A DNA stretch of 64,000 nucleotides from the NCBI GenBank assembly GCA_038139415.1, contig JAYOSV010000019.1, forward strand, positions 1,467-65,466, in the 5' to 3' direction. The notes below the pieces were generated by a model. That model was not told where the DNA came from and searched no databases. It was given only the letters and a program-made list of their open reading frames with translations. Positions within the stretch are counted from its first letter, which is position 1, and every line of letters starts with the position of its first letter. Below, in pieces: positions 24,018 through 31,043 of the stretch. A program made the translations under genes and the position numbers. Source of the stretch: Verrucomicrobiales bacterium. Its GTDB lineage: Bacteria > Verrucomicrobiota > Verrucomicrobiia > Limisphaerales > UBA1100.

Positions 24018-26216
24018 TTAAAGCGTCTTTTTTTTAAGCAATTCAATAATTTGCTCATGTTCGCCATCATCGTATTTTGCCAATCCTTGCCAAGCCAATT
24101 CCAACGGAGTTTCTCCATCAGAGTTAGGGTGGATGGGATTGGCGCCAAAATGAATTAGGGTTTTTACTGGGGTTAACCTGCCTCGAAAAACCCATTTGTG
24201 AAGGGCTGTTTCCCAGTTTTTATTCATGGTATCCACCGGTAGTTCGGCTTCAATAAGGACTTCCATTACTGAAGAATCATCACAATTGTGTAGAGCTGAG
24301 TTCCCTGAATCATCACAGGCCATCACGTCTGCTCCTCGTTCGATAAGAAGACTGGCGATCGACGCCCTTTGGCAGCCGTGTAGGATCGGGTACCCGTGCT
24401 TGTCTTTGGCTTTTAGGTTTAGTTCGCCGCTATTTATTAAATCAAAAATGCGGTGACGGTCTGTGCCCATACGGATTTCATGGAACTCTTCCTCGGTGGG
24501 GGTAAGGCCTGATATAGGCTCGGGTTCCAGAGTTTCCGTTTGCGTGGGGGCAATCCGAGCGACCTGATCTGCTTCGACTTCGCGATCCTTAACTACTTTT
24601 AAACTGACGGTACAGCCCGCAGCTTCAAGATCGGTCTTAATATCCTCGGCAATCGCCGGATTATAGCCTTGCAAAAGTTGGTCCCGATCCGGCTTGAATT
24701 TTACTGCTTCGAGCACCTCGAAGGTGTTCAGGTTTGGCTTAAGCCGTCGCATGATTTGGGTAGCCTCATAAGTGTCTATGGGTAGTTCCTCAATAATAAC
24801 ACGTGTACCGGATTTCCATTGAACGGCAGGGGTAACGGGGGTGAGTGTTGTGGAAGCTACATCCGGTAATGTAGGTGGCAGTAATGGAAGTTCTGTTTGT
24901 GTGGGGTTGATAAGTTCCTGCAGGTTTTTTATGCGAACACGTTCAATGGCGTATTCTTCTTCAGTGTGATAGGGGCTCACAATGATTCGTTCCGCCGTGA
25001 TTTCTAACGAGTTCGGTTCAAAGAAAATGAGACCTTCTTCACCATTGTTCCTCGTGTAGATCAGTTTCTGACCTGAGGGATCGCCGATAATCTTTCGAGT
25101 CGGCTCGATGACAGGAGGAAGCTCTTCTTCCTCGGTTATTAAGGGGGCCGAGAGGACATCCGGATTGAGTATTCTCTCCCGTAGAATGGAAAATCGGGCT
25201 GTTGTGCCTGTGGCTTGGAGCGCTACATGTGAATCGGTGAGTTCTATCGAACCCGGATCAAAATAAATGACGCCACGATTGCCATTATTTCGGGTGTACA
25301 GCAATTCAGTCCCTGTGGAGTTCCCCACGATAAAGGCCTCAGGTTCCAAAACGGGCGGATTGGATTCTGCAGGGGAATGTTGTTCCTCAAGTGTTGGAGG
25401 TGATGGCTCTATTTCAGGCTCCTGACTCCTTAATACGTAACCACAATTCCAGCAGCGATATTCGCCTTCCCAGAGGCGGACGTTGCTGTCGTTGCAACTA
25501 GGGCAGGAATCTTTGTCTGGGGCTTGTAACGTCGGCTGTTGTGGTTCCGGGTCCTGAGCTTCAGGGTTTACGGTCGACGTGGTTTGAAAACCCAATACTT
25601 CGGGATTGCTAATCCGATCAAAATTAAGATTTTTACCTGCTTTAACTTTTAACAGCAGAACGTTGTTTCTAAATGAAAGACTAATCGAGTCAGGTCTAAC
25701 GCGTGTCTCTTTATTTTCTCCTTTAGAATTAGAATAACGAACGGTTACAGGCTCGTTGGAACGAGGTTGAATCCATTGTGTAATGTTCGTGTCAGGGTTT
25801 TTCCATTGATAGCTTGCGAGAACTGAATTGATCTCCTTGGCATTTGTTTGTGCAGTGATTTCCTCATCCGTATCTTTGCCAAACACCTTATGGACGATAT
25901 ACCCCGCAATGTTTCCGATAATGGACCACCCAATTATAGGGAAAATTGTGAGACTTTTATCTTCGATCATAGCCTCACGGTGCAACCATACACCGCAGAG
26001 GAATCCCAGGGCGGTACACATACTTTTTAGGTTGTCTCTTTTTGAAAAGGCTCTAGGAATATTCTGGAAAACCCAGCCCGCAATTCCTCCTGCAAACGCC
26101 CATCCAACTACTGACCCGAATGCCCAATCAGTTGAACTTCCTCCCATTACATCTGCATAACGGCCGCCGAACAATAGGCCATAAATAAAACCGATAAATG
26201 CCAGTCCAATGATCAT
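24018..26216 (-). CDS. Multidomain membrane protein: N-terminal TM helices, three WYL-like repeats, Zn ribbon, L7/L12-CTD-like domain, C-terminal ankyrin repeats
   Basis: Hydrophobic aa 1-110; VRYSNSKG..RVRP...FDRISNP, LLYTRNNG...DP...RERILNP and LIYTRNNG...EP...RVRIKN repeats; CPSC..CWNCGY; ...AEDIKTDLEAAGCTVSLK; ankyrin GNSALH, ETALH, GETPLELA. Confidence 0.75.
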   Translation of the reverse strand: MIIGLAFIGFIYGLLFGGRYADVMGGSSTDWAFGSVVGWAFAGGIAGWVFQNIPRAFSKRDNLKSMCTALGFLCGVWLHREAMIEDKSLTIFPIIGWSIIGNIAGYIVHKVFGKDTDEEITAQTNAKEINSVLASYQWKNPDTNITQWIQPRSNEPVTVRYSNSKGENKETRVRPDSISLSFRNNVLLLKVKAGKNLNFDRISNPEVLGFQTTSTVNPEAQDPEPQQPTLQAPDKDSCPSCNDSNVRLWEGEYRCWNCGYVLRSQEPEIEPSPPTLEEQHSPAESNPPVLEPEAFIVGNSTGTELLYTRNNGNRGVIYFDPGSIELTDSHVALQATGTTARFSILRERILNPDVLSAPLITEEEELPPVIEPTRKIIGDPSGQKLIYTRNNGEEGLIFFEPNSLEITAERIIVSPYHTEEEYAIERVRIKNLQELINPTQTELPLLPPTLPDVASTTLTPVTPAVQWKSGTRVIIEELPIDTYEATQIMRRLKPNLNTFEVLEAVKFKPDRDQLLQGYNPAIAEDIKTDLEAAGCTVSLKVVKDREVEADQVARIAPTQTETLEPEPISGLTPTEEEFHEIRMGTDRHRIFDLINSGELNLKAKDKHGYPILHGCQRASIASLLIERGADVMACDDSGNSALHNCDDSSVMEVLIEAELPVDTMNKNWETALHKWVFRGRLTPVKTLIHFGANPIHPNSDGETPLELAWQGLAKYDDGEHEQIIELLKKKTL

Positions 26217-26284
26217 CTGGATACTCTGGGATAATGCCTGATCAATTTCAGTATGTTAACTAAAAACAAAGTTGTTTTGGGCTG

Positions 26285-26965
26285 TTAATGCCGGCTGATT
26301 TGGCATTCGGCCGCTTCCAGTTTCTGCTGGAACGATTGGGCGGTGGCTTCTGGGAGATTCTCCGCGATGGTCTGTGGAGCATGTTTCAACATATCGTAAA
26401 TATCGAATGTACTCAGATCGGGCCTGATCTCCGCGATGATTTTCTTGATCCGATAATAGTTTGGGCCGGGATTGTTCAGCGTGATTGTATAGCCTTCATT
26501 TTTGAGGCTACGAGCCGGTTTGGGTGAACTCTCTCCCTCGATTTCATCAGCCTCGGGAAAAGGGAGGGGCTCAGGGATCGAATCCGCTTCAGTGTATCCG
26601 CACTCCCAGCAGCGCATTTCGCCATTCCATTCGCGCAGGAAGCCATCGCATGAAGGGCAACTTGCTTCATTTTCATTCAGGAAAGATTCTAATGTTGGCG
26701 GGACTGCAGCTTCCGATAATTGGTTGATTACTTTGGTTTTGCCTCCATCCATCATCGATTGAATTTTTTCGCCAATGCTTTGGCCGGCCCATCGAAAGAA
26801 GAGGATCGGGGCAACAAAGCCCATTACAATGATCGTGGGTTCTTGTTCTTTATTCCCGTTTTCGACTAAGGCTACCGCTACGATTAGTCCGCAGATGAAG
26901 CCCACGATGGACCCAATAAAGGTAAAAACTCTCTCGATAATAGGCTTTTTTTTAGAATCATCCAT
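26285..26965 (-). CDS. Two-TM membrane protein with Zn ribbon and C-terminal L7/L12-CTD-like domain
   Basis: Two hydrophobic helices; CPSCDG..CWECGY; YTITLNNPGPN...APQTIAENLPEATAQSFQQKLEAAECQI. Confidence 0.75.
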   Translation of the reverse strand: MDDSKKKPIIERVFTFIGSIVGFICGLIVAVALVENGNKEQEPTIIVMGFVAPILFFRWAGQSIGEKIQSMMDGGKTKVINQLSEAAVPPTLESFLNENEASCPSCDGFLREWNGEMRCWECGYTEADSIPEPLPFPEADEIEGESSPKPARSLKNEGYTITLNNPGPNYYRIKKIIAEIRPDLSTFDIYDMLKHAPQTIAENLPEATAQSFQQKLEAAECQISRH

Positions 26966-26982
26966 TCTATGGATTGGTCTCT

Positions 26983-28065
26983 CTATTTAATCTCCACGGT
27001 GCACCCAGCATCCTCTAGTCGTTTCTTGAATTGAGCAGCTGCATCCGGCTCGAGATTATCTGCGATGGTGTTCGGGAAATCACGCATCAATTGATAGGTA
27101 TCGAATGTCCCCAATTCCGGCCGGATTTCTTGGATGATTTTAGTGGCGTCATAGGTGCCGAGGCCGCAGCTGGTGATGATGAGAGAGACCTGGCCGGAAG
27201 TATTCGGTGCCGGTTCCTCGGCGACGGGTTGGGGCTCGTGCGGGGTGGCTGGTTCCTGCCCCGGAGTTTTTTCAAAGAGCGCTTCGGGATTGCCAATCCG
27301 GGTGCGTTTGAGCGTGATGTACTGAAAGGTCGGCGAGACGCGGACGCGGACAAAATCGCCCTTGTCATCCACCACGCCGGAAATGATTTTGAATTCCTTC
27401 TGCACCCCCTGCCAGTTGGTGTAGTGGATGATGGAGGTATCCGAAGTAGTGGTTTGAACCGGCAGCGGTTCCTTAGGTAACTGCGCCGGAGCCGCCACGC
27501 CCTTGAGGATGCGCGTCTTTGAACGGTTCAGTGAAATGCGCTTAAAGGTAGGTGCCACCCGTACGGAGAAGTGATTGCCTTTTCTCCTGATGGATTTGGG
27601 ATCACCAATGAATTGTTTCAGGTCGCCGGCGTAGTTGAGGTATTCGATGACAATTGTTTTGTCCGAAGAAGGCGGTTGATACGTTTTCTTTTTTTGGGGT
27701 GAGTTATCTGGGGAATCAGGAGTATTACTGGATGCTGCGGTTTGGTCGTTTTGGGTTATATCTACTTTAGCACCGGCCTGTGCCAGTATTTGTCTAGCCT
27801 CAAAAGCTTCTTCTTTGCTGACACCACTTAATAGTGTGCTGGGAGTTGATTCCACAAACTCTTTGGCCTCCTTTAGTCCAAATGAGGGTATTACAGCTCT
27901 TACTGCCTTGATGGATTGAACTTTATTCCCTCCATCTCCAATCAAAATAACTTCGTATGGGCCACTTTGTTTTTGGATGCGAGGAGCCTTTCGTTGTTGG
28001 CGAGGTGATGGTGGATTGGTTGCCTCGCCAAAGATCGATTTTTTTAATTCATCAAATAATCCCAT
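26983..28065 (-). CDS. Protein with two L7/L12-CTD-like domains flanking two WYL-like repeats
   Basis: YEVILIGDGGNKVQSIKAVRAV..FGLKEAKEFVESTP...GVSKEEA...LAQAGAKV is close to the bL12 CTD; IEYLNYAG.. and IHYTNWQG..RVSPTFQYITLKRTRI repeats; C-terminal ..AAQFKKRLEDAGCTVEIK. Confidence 0.8.
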   Translation of the reverse strand: MGLFDELKKSIFGEATNPPSPRQQRKAPRIQKQSGPYEVILIGDGGNKVQSIKAVRAVIPSFGLKEAKEFVESTPSTLLSGVSKEEAFEARQILAQAGAKVDITQNDQTAASSNTPDSPDNSPQKKKTYQPPSSDKTIVIEYLNYAGDLKQFIGDPKSIRRKGNHFSVRVAPTFKRISLNRSKTRILKGVAAPAQLPKEPLPVQTTTSDTSIIHYTNWQGVQKEFKIISGVVDDKGDFVRVRVSPTFQYITLKRTRIGNPEALFEKTPGQEPATPHEPQPVAEEPAPNTSGQVSLIITSCGLGTYDATKIIQEIRPELGTFDTYQLMRDFPNTIADNLEPDAAAQFKKRLEDAGCTVEIK

Positions 28066-28081
28066 AATGGTGCCTTTTTAT

Positions 28082-28397
28082 TTTGATCACGCAACAGCAA
28101 AGGCGACTTAGGTCTTGGACCGACTCCGATCTGGAGTCGTTCCATCGTCTCCAGATCGGAGTCGGTGGATTGCCCTGATTTACCGTAGGCTGGAGCGTTA
28201 ATTCGCTTCAGCGTCCATGATACATCATTGGAGTTCCACCGTCCCATGATGGATCATGGACGATGTCACTAATGCCGGTTAACACTTAGGCACTCTCCCT
28301 CACGAGTGTTGTTTGCCTGTGCTTCCCGGTACAGAGGGAATCGAGCCCGGTATGTTTCCGGGCCGATGGCAGCCGCCTCTGCTGCTGCGCGATCAAA
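28082..28397 (-). ncRNA. Putative RT-associated structured ncRNA (retron msr/msd-like layout) overlapping the RT 3' end
   Basis: 27-nt arms 28371-28397 and 28082-28108 pair fully on the minus strand (23 Watson-Crick + 4 G-U); internal hairpins at 28341-28366, 28323-28340, 28212-28262, 28189-28212 and 28119-28166. Confidence 0.7.
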
Positions 28398-29749
28398 TTT
28401 TTGTTTCGCATTTGGAAAAAGGACGATTCCAAATGGCCATGCTTTAAGAGTCGGCGTCGATGTTGCAGGCTAGGCAAGCCCATAGCCCGGAGACGGCCAA
28501 ATGGCAGTTTTCGGAAATTGCCTTTTTTATGACCATTCCTAAAAGTGACAGAAAGAATTTCTTCGGCTAACCAGCGATCTAATTCTCGGAGCTGTTTTTC
28601 GTCATTCACATGCTTTAGGTAGTAATCAATAACCGCCACGGATCGAAACGTCTCGTTGACCACATCCCGAGCAATATCGACTGCCAATTGCGCCCGGCCA
28701 TTTGCATGCCTTTGTTTACTAAATCGATGGCGTTTCCTGCGGAAAGCGTTCCGAAAGAGATTGCGAATCTTCCGTCCTTTTTCTCGAGCCATTCCCACTG
28801 ACTGGTCAGCCCGAAATTCCAGGCCGAGATGCTGGAATCGGTCGACCGCTTCAAACGCGCCATCCGTGTGGCCGGCGGTTTGTGGGAAGAAAAAATTGCG
28901 GTGAGCTTTGGGCTTGCTTTGTACGCGCAGGCAATCAAAGGCGTCTCCCATTAGTTCGGCTGCTTGCAGTGTGTTGGATCGGTCCGTCGAGAAGGCGAGG
29001 AGATCATCGGCGTACCGGAAATATTTCAGGCCCTTGATTTTGGTCAGTTGCCGGTCAAGCGGGGTTAGGTAGAGGTTGGCAAAGAAACAGGCGATTGCTG
29101 TTCCGAACGCGATCCCTCGGTTAGCGGTGTTTACGGTGAGGCCGTCTTCCTGCAGTACTTCGAACTGGATGCGTTGGCGGAGCAATTTAAATAGGTAATC
29201 ATTCGGCTCGACCCAATCGGCCAGCAGAGTGAGTAGACGTTCGTGATTGATACTCGGGAAATAATCGGCCACATCGCGTTTCACGAAATATAACGGCCGT
29301 GGTAATTGGCGGATGTGCTGCTCGACCCGGTGCTGGCAGCTATCTACCCCGTGGCTACCCATGCGATAAGCAAAACAGCTTTGCTCATACACACTGTGAA
29401 AATATTTGGTGAGCTCCCGGTAGAGCATGAGATCCACAATCCGCTCCTCCCACGGATAGAGATAAATGGTGCGGTCCTTGCCGTTGGTGTTGAAGTGCAG
29501 CTCAATGCCGGGCCGGTAAACAAATTCTCCCCGTGCCAGTTGCCGATGCAGTTGGGCGGTGTTTTGTAGGGAATCGGCCGCGAAATCGTATAGCGTGCGT
29601 CCGTCGTGCGAGCGGCCCAGCGCCTTGCGCCAGGTAAAGAGCGGCTTGGAGTAGGCGCGGATCACTGCCTGATGCAGGGCTAGCTCCGAATAAATTCGGT
29701 CAAACGTGGCCTTTGGGTGTGTGGCCGGTAATGCACAAGACAGATTCAT
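28286..29749 (-). CDS. Stand-alone reverse transcriptase, group II intron-like (not part of an intron)
   Basis: RT motifs: GKDRTIYLYPWEERIV, SCFAYR, VKRDVADYFPSINHERL, GIAFGTAIACFFANLYLTPLD, YFRYADD, FQHLGLEF; basic thumb-like C-terminus; no HNH or Cas1 domain seen. Confidence 0.92.
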   Translation of the reverse strand: MNLSCALPATHPKATFDRIYSELALHQAVIRAYSKPLFTWRKALGRSHDGRTLYDFAADSLQNTAQLHRQLARGEFVYRPGIELHFNTNGKDRTIYLYPWEERIVDLMLYRELTKYFHSVYEQSCFAYRMGSHGVDSCQHRVEQHIRQLPRPLYFVKRDVADYFPSINHERLLTLLADWVEPNDYLFKLLRQRIQFEVLQEDGLTVNTANRGIAFGTAIACFFANLYLTPLDRQLTKIKGLKYFRYADDLLAFSTDRSNTLQAAELMGDAFDCLRVQSKPKAHRNFFFPQTAGHTDGAFEAVDRFQHLGLEFRADQSVGMAREKGRKIRNLFRNAFRRKRHRFSKQRHANGRAQLAVDIARDVVNETFRSVAVIDYYLKHVNDEKQLRELDRWLAEEILSVTFRNGHKKGNFRKLPFGRLRAMGLPSLQHRRRLLKHGHLESSFFQMRNKNLIAQQQRRLPSARKHTGLDSLCTGKHRQTTLVRESA

Positions 29750-29874
29750 CCCGTTTCACGGGCGCGCAGGGTGTAAGCAGATTACCCGTTGGCGGGCAAA
29801 GGGAAATCCTGAGTTGTTCACCAGAAATTGACGATCCCTCATCGGCCCCGTATCATTGGCCCGTGCCAGAAACT

Positions 29875-30804
29875 ATGCCCATTGATGCCTTGTCCCGCGA
29901 GATTGCCGAGCTGAAAGAGCGGCTGAACGCGGTGATTCTTGTGCATAACTATCAGGTGCCGGAGATTCAGGATATTGGCGATTACGTGGGAGATTCGCTG
30001 GGGCTCTCGCAGCAGGCGGCTGAAACCGATGCGGATGTGATCGTGTTCTGCGGCGTGCATTTCATGGCCGAGACCGCCAAGATTCTGTCGCCCAACAAGA
30101 CGGTGATTCTGCCCGATCGCGATGCCGGCTGTTCACTGGAGGAAAGCTGTCCGCCCGACAAACTACGCGAATTGCAGGCGACCAACCCGAATTTTTTTAC
30201 GGTCACCTATATTAACTGCAGTGCCGAAGTAAAGGCGCTCTCCGATGTCATTTGCACTAGCGGCAATGCGAAGAAAATTGTGGAGCAATGTCCGCCGGAC
30301 AAGGATCTCCTCTTTGTGCCGGACGAAAATCTCGGGCAATGGGTGATGGAACAAACCGGCCGGCCGATGACCCTCTGGCAAGGCAACTGTTATGTGCACG
30401 TGGAGTGGACACACGCCGCGATCACCAAGATCCGAGACGAATATCCCGACGCCCCGCTGGTCGCCCATCCCGAATGCACGAAGGCTGTTCAGATCCTTGC
30501 GGACGAAGTCTGCTCCACTGAAAAGATGGTGCACTACTGCCGCACCGTGGAAAGTGATTCGGTGATCATTGCCACCGAGGCCGGCATGTTGCACCGGTTG
30601 CAAAAAGAGTGCCCTGATAAAAAATTCATTCCTGCCCCGACTGAAAAATGCGCCTGCAACGAGTGTCACTTCATGAAAATGAACACGCTCGAAAAAGTCC
30701 GCGACTGCATGCGCGATTTGACGCCGCAAGTGGAGCTCTCGCCCGAGATCCTCGAGCGCGCCAAACTCCCCATCGAGCGCATGCTCGAATGGACAGCGCG
30801 GTAG
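29875..30804 (+). CDS. nadA: Quinolinate synthase
   Basis: ILVHNYQ, GDSLGLS, FCGVHFMAETAKIL, AGCSL, YINCSA, AHPEC, C..MKMNTL; start ATG 29875 (or GTG 29863). Confidence 0.95.
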   Translation: MPIDALSREIAELKERLNAVILVHNYQVPEIQDIGDYVGDSLGLSQQAAETDADVIVFCGVHFMAETAKILSPNKTVILPDRDAGCSLEESCPPDKLRELQATNPNFFTVTYINCSAEVKALSDVICTSGNAKKIVEQCPPDKDLLFVPDENLGQWVMEQTGRPMTLWQGNCYVHVEWTHAAITKIRDEYPDAPLVAHPECTKAVQILADEVCSTEKMVHYCRTVESDSVIIATEAGMLHRLQKECPDKKFIPAPTEKCACNECHFMKMNTLEKVRDCMRDLTPQVELSPEILERAKLPIERMLEWTAR

Positions 30805-31043
30805 CGTTTGTATTTGTTTGCATTGCTCCTTGTCTCGTTTATCTCATCTGCCGCCGAACGATTGCCGCGACTTGACCTGTTGAATTTTCTCGATTCCGAG
30901 GGCATAGTGGCAGGGATGGTGCCGTTACCGGGTAAGGAGCGGCGCTTGGGTTTGGCCGTGCAGGTGGAGGAGGAAGTGGATGCTGGCAAATACATCCACC
31001 ACCGACCTCGGGTCAAGCAACCGAGATTAGGATTTAGTAAACT

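What the first reader, a model, noticed from the sequence alone, without database searches (positions are those of the whole stretch)
28082..28397. 27-bp long-range stem with strand-specific G-U pairs, resembling retron a1/a2 arms
On the minus (RT-sense) strand 5'-TTTGATCGCGCAGCAGCAGAGGCGGCT-3' (28397-28371) pairs with 5'-AGTCGCCTTTGCTGTTGCGTGATCAAA-3' (28108-28082) at all 27 positions. The four non-Watson-Crick pairs are all G-U; on the plus strand they would be A-C mismatches. This asymmetry argues for selection on RNA structure. The 5' arm also encodes RT residues LIAQQQRRL. A G (28370) follows the 5' arm directly, where retrons place the branching G, then two small stem-loops (28341-28366, 28323-28340; msr-like) and long hairpins (msd-like). 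The branching-G role is inference.
Basis: partly seen in the sequence, partly recalled or inferred. Interest (0 to 1): 0.85.

Follow-up and report, generated by a model that had tools for sequence, protein, structure and literature searches.

The report
Conserved RNA partner of a reverse transcriptase
The long stem is real and closes a conserved, pseudoknotted RNA that overlaps the end of an unclassified bacterial reverse transcriptase gene and sits before a small partner gene, so it looks like a new retron- or DRT-like reverse transcriptase system, not a true retron.

Summary
The 27-bp stem (28371-28397 / 28082-28108, minus strand, four G-U pairs) is confirmed. It is far beyond chance: 27 bp against 12-19 in 30 shuffles. 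It is the closing helix (P1) of a structured RNA found at the 3' end of the reverse transcriptase (RT) gene in 81 of 85 related loci. Covariation is strong: 92.5% of cells paired against 42-51% for slid controls, and 47 of 56 pairs change on both sides. G-U pairs far outnumber A-C (86 against 10 in P1), so the RNA is RT-sense.

Contigs from three marine metatranscriptome studies cover just the interior of P1, which suggests a discrete processed molecule.

The RT has YADD but lacks the retron motifs and fails the retron, group II and DRT family models. Its best match is UG26, at only 125 bits. A small gene with no Pfam or NCBIfam family match (zinc ribbon plus SH3-like barrel) follows in most loci.

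Best reading: this is the RNA subunit, scaffold and probably template, of a previously undescribed RT-ncRNA-partner module. A retron-style branching role for the invariant G28370 remains possible but untested.

The parts
28286..29749 (-). Reverse transcriptase gene (487 aa, YADD at residue 246). The last ~37 codons overlap the RNA.
   Evidence: ORF, translation, Pfam RVT_1 at 1.3e-15. Best PADLOC model is RT_UG26, 125 bits. No NAxxH or VTG.
28082..28397 (-). Whole structured RNA element, from the outer ends of P1.
   Evidence: Fold z -16.1. The covariance model built from distant relatives hits 28229-28371 at E 3.6e-10. It is the only hit in the genome.
28371..28397 (-). P1 5' arm. It also codes for LIAQQQRRL.
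   Evidence: P1 is 99.1% paired in 16 close relatives. 15 of 17 homologous pairs change on both sides in 43 distant relatives.
28082..28108 (-). P1 3' arm. It ends 16 nt before the partner gene's start codon.
28367..28370 (-). Invariant G (28370) at the inner end of P1, followed by the conserved y-C-A.
   Evidence: Invariant columns G21, C23, A24 in A3 (43 of 43) and G41-A44 in A5 (16 of 16).
28341..28366 (-). P2 hairpin, variable in sequence and length across the family.
   Evidence: MFE fold. Helices 2 and 3 show compensatory changes.
28334..28339 (-). Pseudoknot strand 1 (pyrimidine tract UCCCUC).
   Evidence: Pairs with 28296-28301. The family helix is 98.8% paired and 4 of 6 pairs change on both sides. 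The window is aligned to the model.
28292..28307 (-). P5 hairpin with the conserved 8-nt loop GUGAGGGA. Loop bases 28296-28301 are pseudoknot strand 2.
   Evidence: Helix 7 (4 of 4 pairs change on both sides). Alignment.
28275..28329 (-). P3/P4 core helices enclosing P5. The RT stop codon (28286-28288) lies inside.
   Evidence: Helices 5 and 6 (93.0% and 99.3% paired). Alignment.
28209..28265 (-). Long hairpin A. Its stem sequence differs between near-identical strains; its loop (ACGGUGGAA) is constant.
   Evidence: I2. 11 of 19 pairs change on both sides among 16 close relatives. Alignment.
28167..28208 (-). Linker that is almost unalignable between otherwise ~95% identical relatives.
   Evidence: Alignment A5, columns about 212-266.
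28119..28166 (-). Long hairpin B, with a loop (ACGAUGGAA) like that of hairpin A.
   Evidence: I3. 7 of 18 pairs change on both sides.
28094..28377 (.). Interval covered by separate high-depth contigs in three marine metatranscriptome runs. Strand not known.
   Evidence: X3 28094-28377, X4 28109-28375, X2 28109-28350 and 28335-28372, with library-adapter-like letters at the X2 ends.
26983..28065 (-). Partner gene (360 aa): L7/L12 C-terminal domain, two copies of the family's small beta-barrel domain, and a second L7/L12-like domain.
   Evidence: Pfam Ribosomal_L12 at 3.2e-27 with 2 stretches. Residues ~135-265 match the gene after the RNA in 62 of 85 loci. Family alignment and model.

Best explanation
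The stem is the closing helix (P1) of a conserved structured non-coding RNA. The RNA is about 170-190 nt in most relatives and about 316 nt here, because two long hairpins are inserted. It starts where the conserved RT fold ends, overlaps the RT's unconstrained C-terminal tail, and stops just before a small partner gene.

Proposed mechanism, with the status of each step:
1. Shown: the RT-sense transcript folds into P1, hairpin P2, a pseudoknotted core (P3/P4/P5 plus a pyrimidine tract) and 3' hairpin(s).
2. Supported weakly to moderately: the RNA is cut within P1 and accumulates as a discrete molecule comprising the interior plus a few arm nucleotides.
3. Inferred by analogy with retrons and with DRT2, DRT9 and DRT10: the RT binds the conserved 5' core and uses part of the variable 3' half as a template for cDNA.
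4. Inferred, weakly: the partner protein (zinc ribbon, SH3/Sm/WYL-like barrel, helical tail) binds the RNA or the cDNA product and couples it to an output, possibly phage defence.

The system is a previously undescribed RT-ncRNA-partner module, not a member of the retron, group II intron, DGR or named DRT families.
For: The stem is real and non-random.

The RNA is conserved with its RT:
- A covariance model built from 43 distant loci matches at the RT 3' end in 81 of 85 loci.
- Among the 42 loci not used to build the model, 38 match there. Three misses are cut by contig ends, and L034 lacks it at that place.
- The model hits the window once (E 3.6e-10) and the whole genome once.

Covariation on a structure-blind MAFFT alignment (similar on A2):
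- 92.5% of cells are paired, against 42-51% when partners are slid.
- 47 of 56 pairs change on both sides.
- 0 of 500 shuffles reach any measure.

Strand: G-U outnumbers A-C 86 to 10 in P1 and 195 to 38 overall.

The constraint is on RNA, not protein:
- The invariant GGCUGCCA is read in different frames in different clades (offsets 111 and 112 from a codon-aligned anchor).
- Stop codons fall at different places.
- A one-base insertion changes the tail without changing the RNA.

Expression: contigs from three studies cover 28094/28109 to 28372/28377. Their word depths are 27-209, while contigs over the flanking coding sequence have 2-4. In X2 the contig ends carry adapter-like letters.

The RT is intact, with YADD and other invariant motif residues.

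The partner gene follows the RNA in 62 of 85 loci by tblastn, and in further loci by ORF translation. Genes beyond it are unrelated housekeeping genes.

Context from the literature: class 2 UG RTs (DRT2, DRT9, DRT10) all use multi-stem ncRNA templates (passages of 10.1101/2025.10.16.682844).
Against: - No cDNA, RT-RNA binding or template has been shown.
- A search for a DRT10-style A-B-A' template gave only clade-limited candidates.
- A DRT2-style open concatemer frame is absent: 4 of 43 sequences are open on either strand.
- The RT's match to any UG model is modest: 125 bits for the window's RT, and 78-134 bits for 14 single-RT homologues scanned. The fifteenth scanned, a two-RT protein, summed to 316 bits.
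- Contig depth is one figure per contig, and the tool warns it is a poor measure of expression. The strand is unknown, and one of the four runs (X1) gave a contig only over the RT coding sequence.
- The sampled loci are not in obvious defence islands, and in the marine clade the module sits next to nadA throughout. A defence role is therefore unproven.
- The partner's fold matches are weak: best Z 4.5, best Foldseek E 0.047.
Confidence: 0.75

Rival explanations
1. It is a true retron. P1 is the a1/a2 duplex, and the invariant G28370 is the branching G whose 2'-OH primes reverse transcription of the 3' hairpin region into a branched msDNA. The 5' core plays the msr role.
For: The geometry matches: a long duplex joins the ends, an invariant G sits at its inner 5' end (43 of 43 and 16 of 16), conserved stem-loops lie in the 5' half, and long hairpins that vary between strains lie in the 3' half. 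An accessory gene is adjacent.
Against: - The RT has no NAxxH or VTG motif.
- Retron models score 58.8 bits against a cut-off of 235 and at most 42.7 bits in PADLOC.
- The RNA is at and after the RT 3' end.
- In 30 of 43 relatives that G pairs with U or C as the last pair of P1.
- No Rfam retron family matches.
Confidence: 0.1
2. It is a telomerase- or DRT10/DRT9-like repeat-synthesis RNA. P1 acts as a core-enclosing helix, the pseudoknot and a stable hairpin set a template boundary, and a short single-stranded stretch is copied iteratively, possibly protein-primed, into tandem-repeat DNA.
For: - The RT's nearest models are class 2 UG groups: UG26 125 bits, Drt9 90.7, UG17 90.4.
- Class 2 enzymes studied so far all copy a ncRNA template iteratively.
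- The RNA has a closing helix, a pseudoknot and invariant single-stranded stretches (GUUAUUGAAG, CGUUU) next to hairpins.
- In 15-17 of 43 relatives CGUUUC recurs 12-16 nt downstream, right after the last hairpin.
Against: - That A-B-A' candidate is confined to one soil subclade, its second copy lies inside P1, and the window lacks it.
- There is no SLATT or other known DRT partner.
- No conserved C-terminal Ser/Tyr priming residue could be assigned.
- No product data exist.
Confidence: 0.25
3. It is only a cis-acting mRNA element: a processing or stability site between the RT and partner cistrons, or a leader controlling the partner gene, with no role in reverse transcription.
For: It lies between two co-oriented genes, and P1 ends 16 nt before the partner's start codon. 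Contig ends inside P1 fit endonucleolytic processing.
Against: - A pseudoknotted multi-helix core with about 27 invariant positions across three phyla is far more than a processing site needs.
- P1 does not cover the ribosome-binding site.
- There is no terminator-like site on the minus strand.
- The element starts exactly where RT conservation ends in all clades.
- The covered interval stands apart from the partner mRNA in the contigs.
Confidence: 0.08

Closest known systems
Retron msr-msd RNA with a1/a2 inverted repeats
   Same: An RT-adjacent, same-strand structured RNA whose ends are joined by a long duplex. A conserved G lies at the inner 5' end of that duplex. Conserved stem-loops come first, then long variable hairpins. 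An accessory gene sits beside it.
   Different: The RT is not of the retron clade (motifs and models fail). The RNA overlaps the RT 3' end instead of lying upstream. A pseudoknotted core is present. Branched msDNA has not been shown.
DRT10 (UG17) and DRT9 (UG28) ncRNAs of class 2 UG reverse transcriptases
   Same: A tripartite module of RT, ncRNA and a small partner. The ncRNA is a large central stem decorated with smaller stem-loops (passages). The RT is distantly similar (about 90 bits to the Drt9 and UG17 models).
   Different: It is a different RNA family, with no Rfam or model match. The partner has no SLATT match in Pfam or PADLOC (window's protein in both, six relatives in Pfam only). 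No clear A-B-A' or poly-U template is seen. The RNA overlaps the RT coding end. The hosts are Verrucomicrobiota, Planctomycetota and Acidobacteriota.
UG26 reverse transcriptases (Mestre et al. 2022, PMC9226505)
   Same: This is the best-scoring PADLOC model over nearly its full length (88-430 against 67-390 of 398).
   Different: The score is only 125 bits, and 14 single-RT homologues score 78-134 bits. The passages I read list UG26 as 35 members, sometimes next to a Vsr-like endonuclease, with no ncRNA reported and the defence prediction inconclusive.
Telomerase RNA core
   Same: A closing helix, a pseudoknot and conserved single-stranded stretches beside a boundary hairpin. The comparison rests on general knowledge and on passages of 10.1101/2025.10.16.682844.
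   Different: No template or repeat product has been identified, and no homology is claimed.

Membership tests
Retron | RT belongs to the retron RT clade (family models). | tested here: not met
   NCBIfam retron_St85_RT scores 58.8 bits against a cut-off of 235. The best PADLOC retron model, RT_II-A, scores 42.7 bits, below six UG or generic RT models.
Retron | [quoted passage not shown] | tested here: not met
   A regex on the 487-aa protein finds neither motif. YADD is at residue 246.
Retron | Flanking inverted repeats (a1/a2) that pair the ends of the ncRNA. | tested here: met
   P1 is 27 bp here, and the homologous 17-bp helix has 15 pairs that change on both sides.
Retron | Conserved branching G next to the 5' arm. 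| tested here: inconclusive
   The G is invariant (43 of 43, 16 of 16). However, it is paired in 30 of 43 relatives, and branching itself cannot be seen in sequence.
Retron | 2'-5' branched multicopy RNA-DNA (msDNA). | not testable with these tools
   This needs nucleic-acid extraction, a debranching assay or cDNA sequencing.
Class 2 UG/DRT systems (UG26, DRT9, DRT10) | RT assigned to a defined UG group by its model. | tested here: inconclusive
   The best match is RT_UG26 at 125 bits, then a generic RT model at 116, Drt9 at 90.7 and UG17 at 90.4. Homologues behave the same way. PADLOC output gives no cut-offs.
Class 2 UG/DRT systems (UG26, DRT9, DRT10) | Associated multi-stem ncRNA required as template. 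| tested here: inconclusive
   A conserved multi-stem ncRNA is present. Its use as a template is not shown, and the A-B-A' scan gave only clade-limited candidates.
DRT10 | SLATT-domain partner protein. | tested here: not met
   The window's partner has no PADLOC match. In Pfam it matches only the L7/L12 C-terminal domain, and the six relatives scanned match nothing above cut-off apart from that same domain in L029.
DRT2 | Template whose concatemer gives an open reading frame. | tested here: not met
   The tripled interior of P1 is stop-free in some frame in 4 of 43 sequences on each strand.
Group II intron | RT/maturase model and intron RNA domains. | tested here: not met
   TIGR04416 scores 90.8 bits against a cut-off of 300. 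No Rfam intron family matches at E <= 1 in 26000-31000. nadA starts divergently right at the RT start, leaving no room for domains I-III.
Diversity-generating retroelement | Template repeat with a second, variable copy in a target gene. | tested here: not met
   The 3.2-Mb assembly (90.7% complete) holds no second copy of 28082-28397. The only hits are the element itself and its own hairpin.
Any Rfam 15 family | Match to a curated covariance model. | tested here: not met
   There are no matches at E <= 1 in the window region. In six related loci the only match is a chance microRNA hit at E 0.085.

The most novel reading that the evidence does not exclude
This is a new class of reverse-transcriptase ribonucleoprotein, spread through Verrucomicrobiota, Planctomycetota and Acidobacteriota. 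In marine Verrucomicrobiales it has been held next to nadA while the RT diverged to ~60% identity. Its pseudoknotted RNA, closed by a long helix and visible as a separate molecule in ocean metatranscriptome contigs, would direct a cDNA product by a mechanism distinct from retrons, DRT2, DRT9 and DRT10. The strain-variable hairpins would be the copied or sensed part. The small barrel proteins, here fused to ribosomal L7/L12 C-terminal domains, would read the product out and perhaps link it to translation factors.
Probability: 0.3. Interest if true: 0.9.

Novelty: new variant of a known kind. Interest (0 to 1): 0.74.

Why it matters
RT-plus-ncRNA systems (retrons, DRT2, DRT9, DRT10) have each revealed an unexpected way of making DNA, and several have become tools. 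Here a large, unclassified RT family (1012 proteins at E <= 0.001 among the 8000 candidates scored) turns out to carry its own conserved RNA. That RNA has 50 nested base pairs plus a pseudoknot, strong covariation, and signs of a discrete molecule in ocean metatranscriptomes. The partner protein matches no Pfam or NCBIfam family.

This gives precise RNA boundaries, a covariance model and testable residues (G28370, P1, the pseudoknot, YADD) for a system that PADLOC and Rfam do not detect and that my four answered literature searches did not find described. The module is vertically retained in abundant marine bacteria, and the link to L7/L12-like domains is unusual. Both raise the question of whether its role is defence at all.

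Tried and rejected
- Group II intron, DGR and known Rfam families were tested and rejected.
- A DRT2-like endless ORF was rejected.
- DRT10-like A-B-A' template: only clade-limited repeats were found, UGAAG...UGAAG in 21 of 43 and CGUUUC...CGUUUC in 15-17 of 43. The window has an AGUCG...AGUCG repeat (my reading of the alignment) that is lost in relatives with a different hairpin B. Not usable as evidence.
- Intrinsic terminator: there is no terminator-like site on the minus strand in 27800-29900.
- RT-partner complex prediction returned 'no answer' (score 0.00). This is no evidence either way.
- Partner fold: Foldseek against the PDB found nothing at E <= 0.001 (best BrxR, 0.047). VIA-align's best Z is 4.5, all hits being small SH3/Sm/Sac7d/WYL-type barrels over residues 69-131. 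This indicates a common fold only. The zinc ribbon and helical tail were barely tested.
- The ESM Atlas returned only hypothetical proteins of Acidobacteriota.
- A phylum-wide genome search with the RT profile found only the window's own genome among 401 sampled. That shows the sample missed the clade, not that the clade is absent; one search found five related MAG contigs.
- Run X1 gave no contig over the RNA, only one over the RT coding sequence. A part without cover proves nothing.
- Another 10 RNA runs hold 14-17% of the sampled words, but I did not lay them, so they are not counted.
- Supplementary files of the papers were not seen. The supplements of Mestre 2022 and of the DRT10 preprint could list ncRNA predictions or RT clades that include this family.

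Full report
**Observation.** On the minus strand, 28397-28371 pairs with 28108-28082 at all 27 positions, with 23 Watson-Crick and 4 G-U pairs. It is the longest inverted repeat in 26000-31000, with 262 nt between the arms. The longest gapless helix with G-U allowed in that 5-kb region is 27 bp, against 12-19 bp in 30 dinucleotide-preserving shuffles. The minus strand of 28075-28405 folds to -167.8 kcal/mol (shuffles -96.3 +/- 4.4, z -16.1), with this stem closing the structure. The plus strand gives -161.6 kcal/mol (z -10.6). The 5' arm encodes residues LIAQQQRRL of the 487-aa ORF 28286-29749.

**Gene context.**
- The ORF is a reverse transcriptase (Pfam RVT_1, 1.3e-15; YADD at residue 246).
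- Its best PADLOC model is RT_UG26 at only 125 bits. A generic RT model follows at 116 bits, then Drt9 at 90.7 and UG17 at 90.4.
- NCBIfam places it under every curated cut-off: group II RT/maturase 90.8 against 300, retron St85 58.8 against 235, Drt3a 57.4 against 200, Drt2 43.3 against 390.
- It has no NAxxH or VTG motif.
- I scanned fifteen homologues spanning 24-57% identity. The 14 single-RT proteins score 78-134 bits to UG26. The fifteenth, a two-RT protein, sums to 316 bits.
- Upstream, nadA is divergent and abuts the RT start.
- Downstream on the same strand come three genes. The first is a 360-aa protein with two L7/L12 C-terminal-like domains. The second is a 226-aa protein with a weak L7/L12-like domain. 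The third is a 732-aa ankyrin protein.
- Record titles of close relatives name uncultured Verrucomicrobiales MAGs.

**The RT family.** The family is large: 1012 proteins at E <= 0.001 among the 8000 candidates scored, and 76 50%-identity cluster representatives at E <= 1e-30. Source names point to Planctomycetota. The partner protein's relatives are named Acidobacteriota. A scan of metagenome contigs confirmed 258 relatives, of which the best 80 were fetched. Five more loci came from species-representative genomes.

**The RNA is conserved with the RT.**
- I anchored each locus on the codon-aligned GLPSLxHRRR motif. A long-range helix then starts 84-112 nt after the anchor in nearly every locus long enough to show it. 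The arm sequences are quite different between clades.
- On structure-blind MAFFT alignments of 44 and 43 non-window-clade sequences (A2, A3) I wrote down a structure. It has P1 (17 bp), P2, P3, P4, P5, P6 and a pseudoknot between a pyrimidine tract and the P5 loop.
- On A3, 92.5% of 2331 cells form standard pairs, against 42-51% when 3' partners are slid by 1-3 columns.
- 47 of 56 pairs change on both sides, and 0 of 500 column shuffles reach any of the five measures. A2 gives 92.0% and 47 of 56.
- P1 has 15 of 17 pairs changing on both sides. The pseudoknot is 98.8% paired, with 4 of 6.
- I derived the structure from one of these sequences, and the sequences are related, so the slid and shuffled controls overstate the case somewhat. 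The number of distinct compensatory pair types (130 beyond the first) is nevertheless large.
- A covariance model built from A3 (188 positions, 50 pairs) matches at the RT 3' end in 81 of 85 loci.
- 43 of those 81 were its training set. Of the 42 other loci, 38 match there. L022, L032 and L083 end at or before the site. L034 lacks the RNA at the RT end and has only a weak partial hit elsewhere.
- The model hits the window once (28229-28371, 42.1 bits, E 3.6e-10) and the 3.2-Mb genome once.
- The window's clade differs by an insertion of about 110 nt in the 3' half. It holds two long hairpins and a linker, which is why the model does not bridge to P1 there.
- Within that clade (16 sequences, A5) the window's own structure is 97.0% paired, against 34-43% for slid controls. 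P1 is 99.1% paired, with 10 of 27 pairs varying by G-U/G-C/A-U transitions. Hairpins A and B have 11 of 19 and 7 of 18 pairs changing on both sides.

**Strand, and RNA rather than protein constraint.**
- In P1 of A3 there are 604 Watson-Crick, 86 G-U/U-G, 10 A-C/C-A and 23 other cells. Over all helices the counts are 1962, 195, 38 and 136. In the window's clade P1 has 374, 54, 1 and 3.
- RT conservation ends at about residue 445 (invariant F444, F445), just before the 5' arm.
- The invariant GGCUGCCA at the inner end of P1 is read in different frames. The G lies at offset 111 from the anchor in the window and marine clades, and at offset 112 in the soil clades.
- The stop codon falls inside the core in the window (28286-28288). 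In L073 it falls at the UAG that opens the P1 3' arm, so there the ORF reads through the whole RNA. It falls elsewhere in other clades.
- A one-base insertion in L004 and L014 changes the tail peptide but not the RNA.

**Expression.**
- Fourteen marine metatranscriptome runs hold 14-21% of the sampled words of 27900-28700. I laid four runs from four studies on 27600-29000.
- Three of the four have separate contigs over just the interior of P1. X3 covers 28094-28377 (word depth 89.8). X4 covers 28109-28375 (27.3). X2 covers 28109-28350 (208.7) and 28335-28372 (62.1).
- Contigs over the neighbouring coding sequences have depth 2-4. X1 has only an RT-coding contig (28443-28639, depth 11.8).
- In X2 the loose ends at both sides read like Illumina adapter. 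That identification is my recollection. If it is right, library inserts end there.
- The tool warns that contig depth is a poor measure of expression, that the strand is not shown and that DNA can be present. I therefore take this as weak-to-moderate support for a discrete, stable molecule made of the interior plus a few arm nucleotides. That would mean cleavage inside P1.

**Partner gene.**
- Residues about 135-265 of the window's 360-aa protein match the gene right after the RNA in 62 of 85 loci by tblastn.
- Other loci (for example L045, L055, L073, L080) carry it by ORF translation and alignment. L066 has an unrelated ORF there.
- The typical form is 130-200 aa. It has an N-terminal MGxFD and a CxxC...CxxxxC zinc ribbon, a central barrel domain, and a helical tail ending KYPxY.
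- No Pfam or NCBIfam family reaches its cut-off. 99 close relatives are all 'hypothetical'.
- An AlphaFold model (pLDDT 90.2) matches only small SH3/Sm/Sac7d/WYL-type barrels weakly: best Z 4.5, with WYL proteins CapW, PafBC and DriD at Z 3.3-3.7, and best Foldseek E 0.047.
- Genes beyond the partner are unrelated: a GH95 hydrolase, an AMP-binding enzyme, LarA, BamB-like and TPR proteins, and a helicase. The conserved module is therefore RT, RNA and partner.
- In the marine clade nadA stays upstream while RT identity falls to 60-66%, which suggests long vertical retention.

**What it is.** It is a conserved, structured, probably processed RNA that is physically and evolutionarily tied to an intact RT and a small partner gene. 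The best explanation is that it is the RT's RNA subunit. The conserved 5' core (P2, pseudoknot, P3-P5) would be the protein-binding scaffold, and part of the 3' half would be the template. This matches how retrons and the class 2 UG systems DRT2, DRT9 and DRT10 work (passages of PMC9226505 and 10.1101/2025.10.16.682844). Folding, conservation and strand are shown. Processing is suggested. RT binding, templating and the partner's role are inferred.

**Comparison with known families.**
- Retron: the a1/a2 analogy is apt in form, and the G at 28370 is invariant. But the RT fails both the retron motifs and the retron models, and the RNA lies at the RT's 3' end. In 30 of 43 relatives that G is simply the last pair of P1.
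- DRT10/DRT9: the general architecture is similar and the RT is distantly related. The RNA family and partner differ, and no A-B-A' or poly-U template is evident.
- DRT2: no open concatemer frame.
- Group II intron, DGR and Rfam families: tested and not met.
- UG26: the nearest RT model, but only weakly. In the passages I read, no ncRNA is reported for it.
- Literature: four of my eight searches were answered with results, one found nothing and three failed on term format. None turned up a description of this RNA or of the partner family. Supplements were not available.

**Verdict.** The retron reading is right about RNA-level selection and the RT association, but membership is not supported. 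I rate this a new variant of a known kind, namely RT-ncRNA-accessory systems, with good experimental handles.

Noticed in passing
window 28167-28265; A5 columns ~156-266: Among relatives whose RT is 94-97% identical, the stem of hairpin A is replaced wholesale by other perfectly paired sequences while its loop stays constant. The linker after it is essentially unalignable. The rest of the RNA is nearly invariant. This is local hypervariability inside a conserved RNA.
   Followed up: partly
window 28119-28166 and 28209-28265: The two long hairpins carry near-identical loop motifs (ACGGUGGAA and ACGAUGGAA), which suggests a duplication and a shared ligand or protein contact.
   Followed up: no
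L073:3926-5479: In the soil (Acidobacteriota-like) clade the RT ORF reads through the entire RNA and stops at the UAG of the conserved UUAGCC that opens the P1 3' arm. Annotated RT lengths therefore differ by clade, although the folded domain ends at the same place.
   Followed up: partly
window 24018-28065: Three consecutive same-strand genes after the RNA share pieces. The 360-aa and 226-aa proteins share an L7/L12 C-terminal-like domain. The 732-aa ankyrin protein has a region (residues ~307-540) similar to the 360-aa protein and a weak PADLOC hit to candidate PDC-M72A (1.2e-11).
   Followed up: partly
L028, L029, L030, L040 (partner ORFs): Some partner proteins appear, by eye, to carry N-terminal or internal hydrophobic, transmembrane-like stretches. 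L029 and L030 have two to three copies of the barrel domain plus a C-terminal L7/L12-like domain. The partner is modular across clades.
   Followed up: no
window 29713-30804 and loci L001-L032: nadA (quinolinate synthase) stays divergently upstream of the RT in the marine clade even where RT identity drops to 60-66% and nadA stays at 80-93%. That points to long vertical retention, unusual for a defence system.
   Followed up: partly
L034:1-2725: This locus has an RT with an altered C-terminus and no RNA at the RT end. It has a weak partial match to the 5' part of the RNA model after the partner gene, at the contig end (24.9 bits, E 1.3e-4).
   Followed up: no
proteins P0173 and P0056: P0173 (854 aa) matches the RT models in two stretches, so it is a tandem double RT. 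P0056 (725 aa) is listed with RT plus topoisomerase-type Pfam domains. These are possible fusions or gene-calling artefacts.
   Followed up: no
RT residue S427 (GLPSL motif), window ~28469-28471: The serine of the GLPSL motif near the C-terminus is invariant in 35 of 35 and 44 of 44 aligned RTs. DRT10 primes from a conserved C-terminal Ser or Tyr, so this residue is a candidate worth mutating. There is no evidence here that it primes.
   Followed up: no
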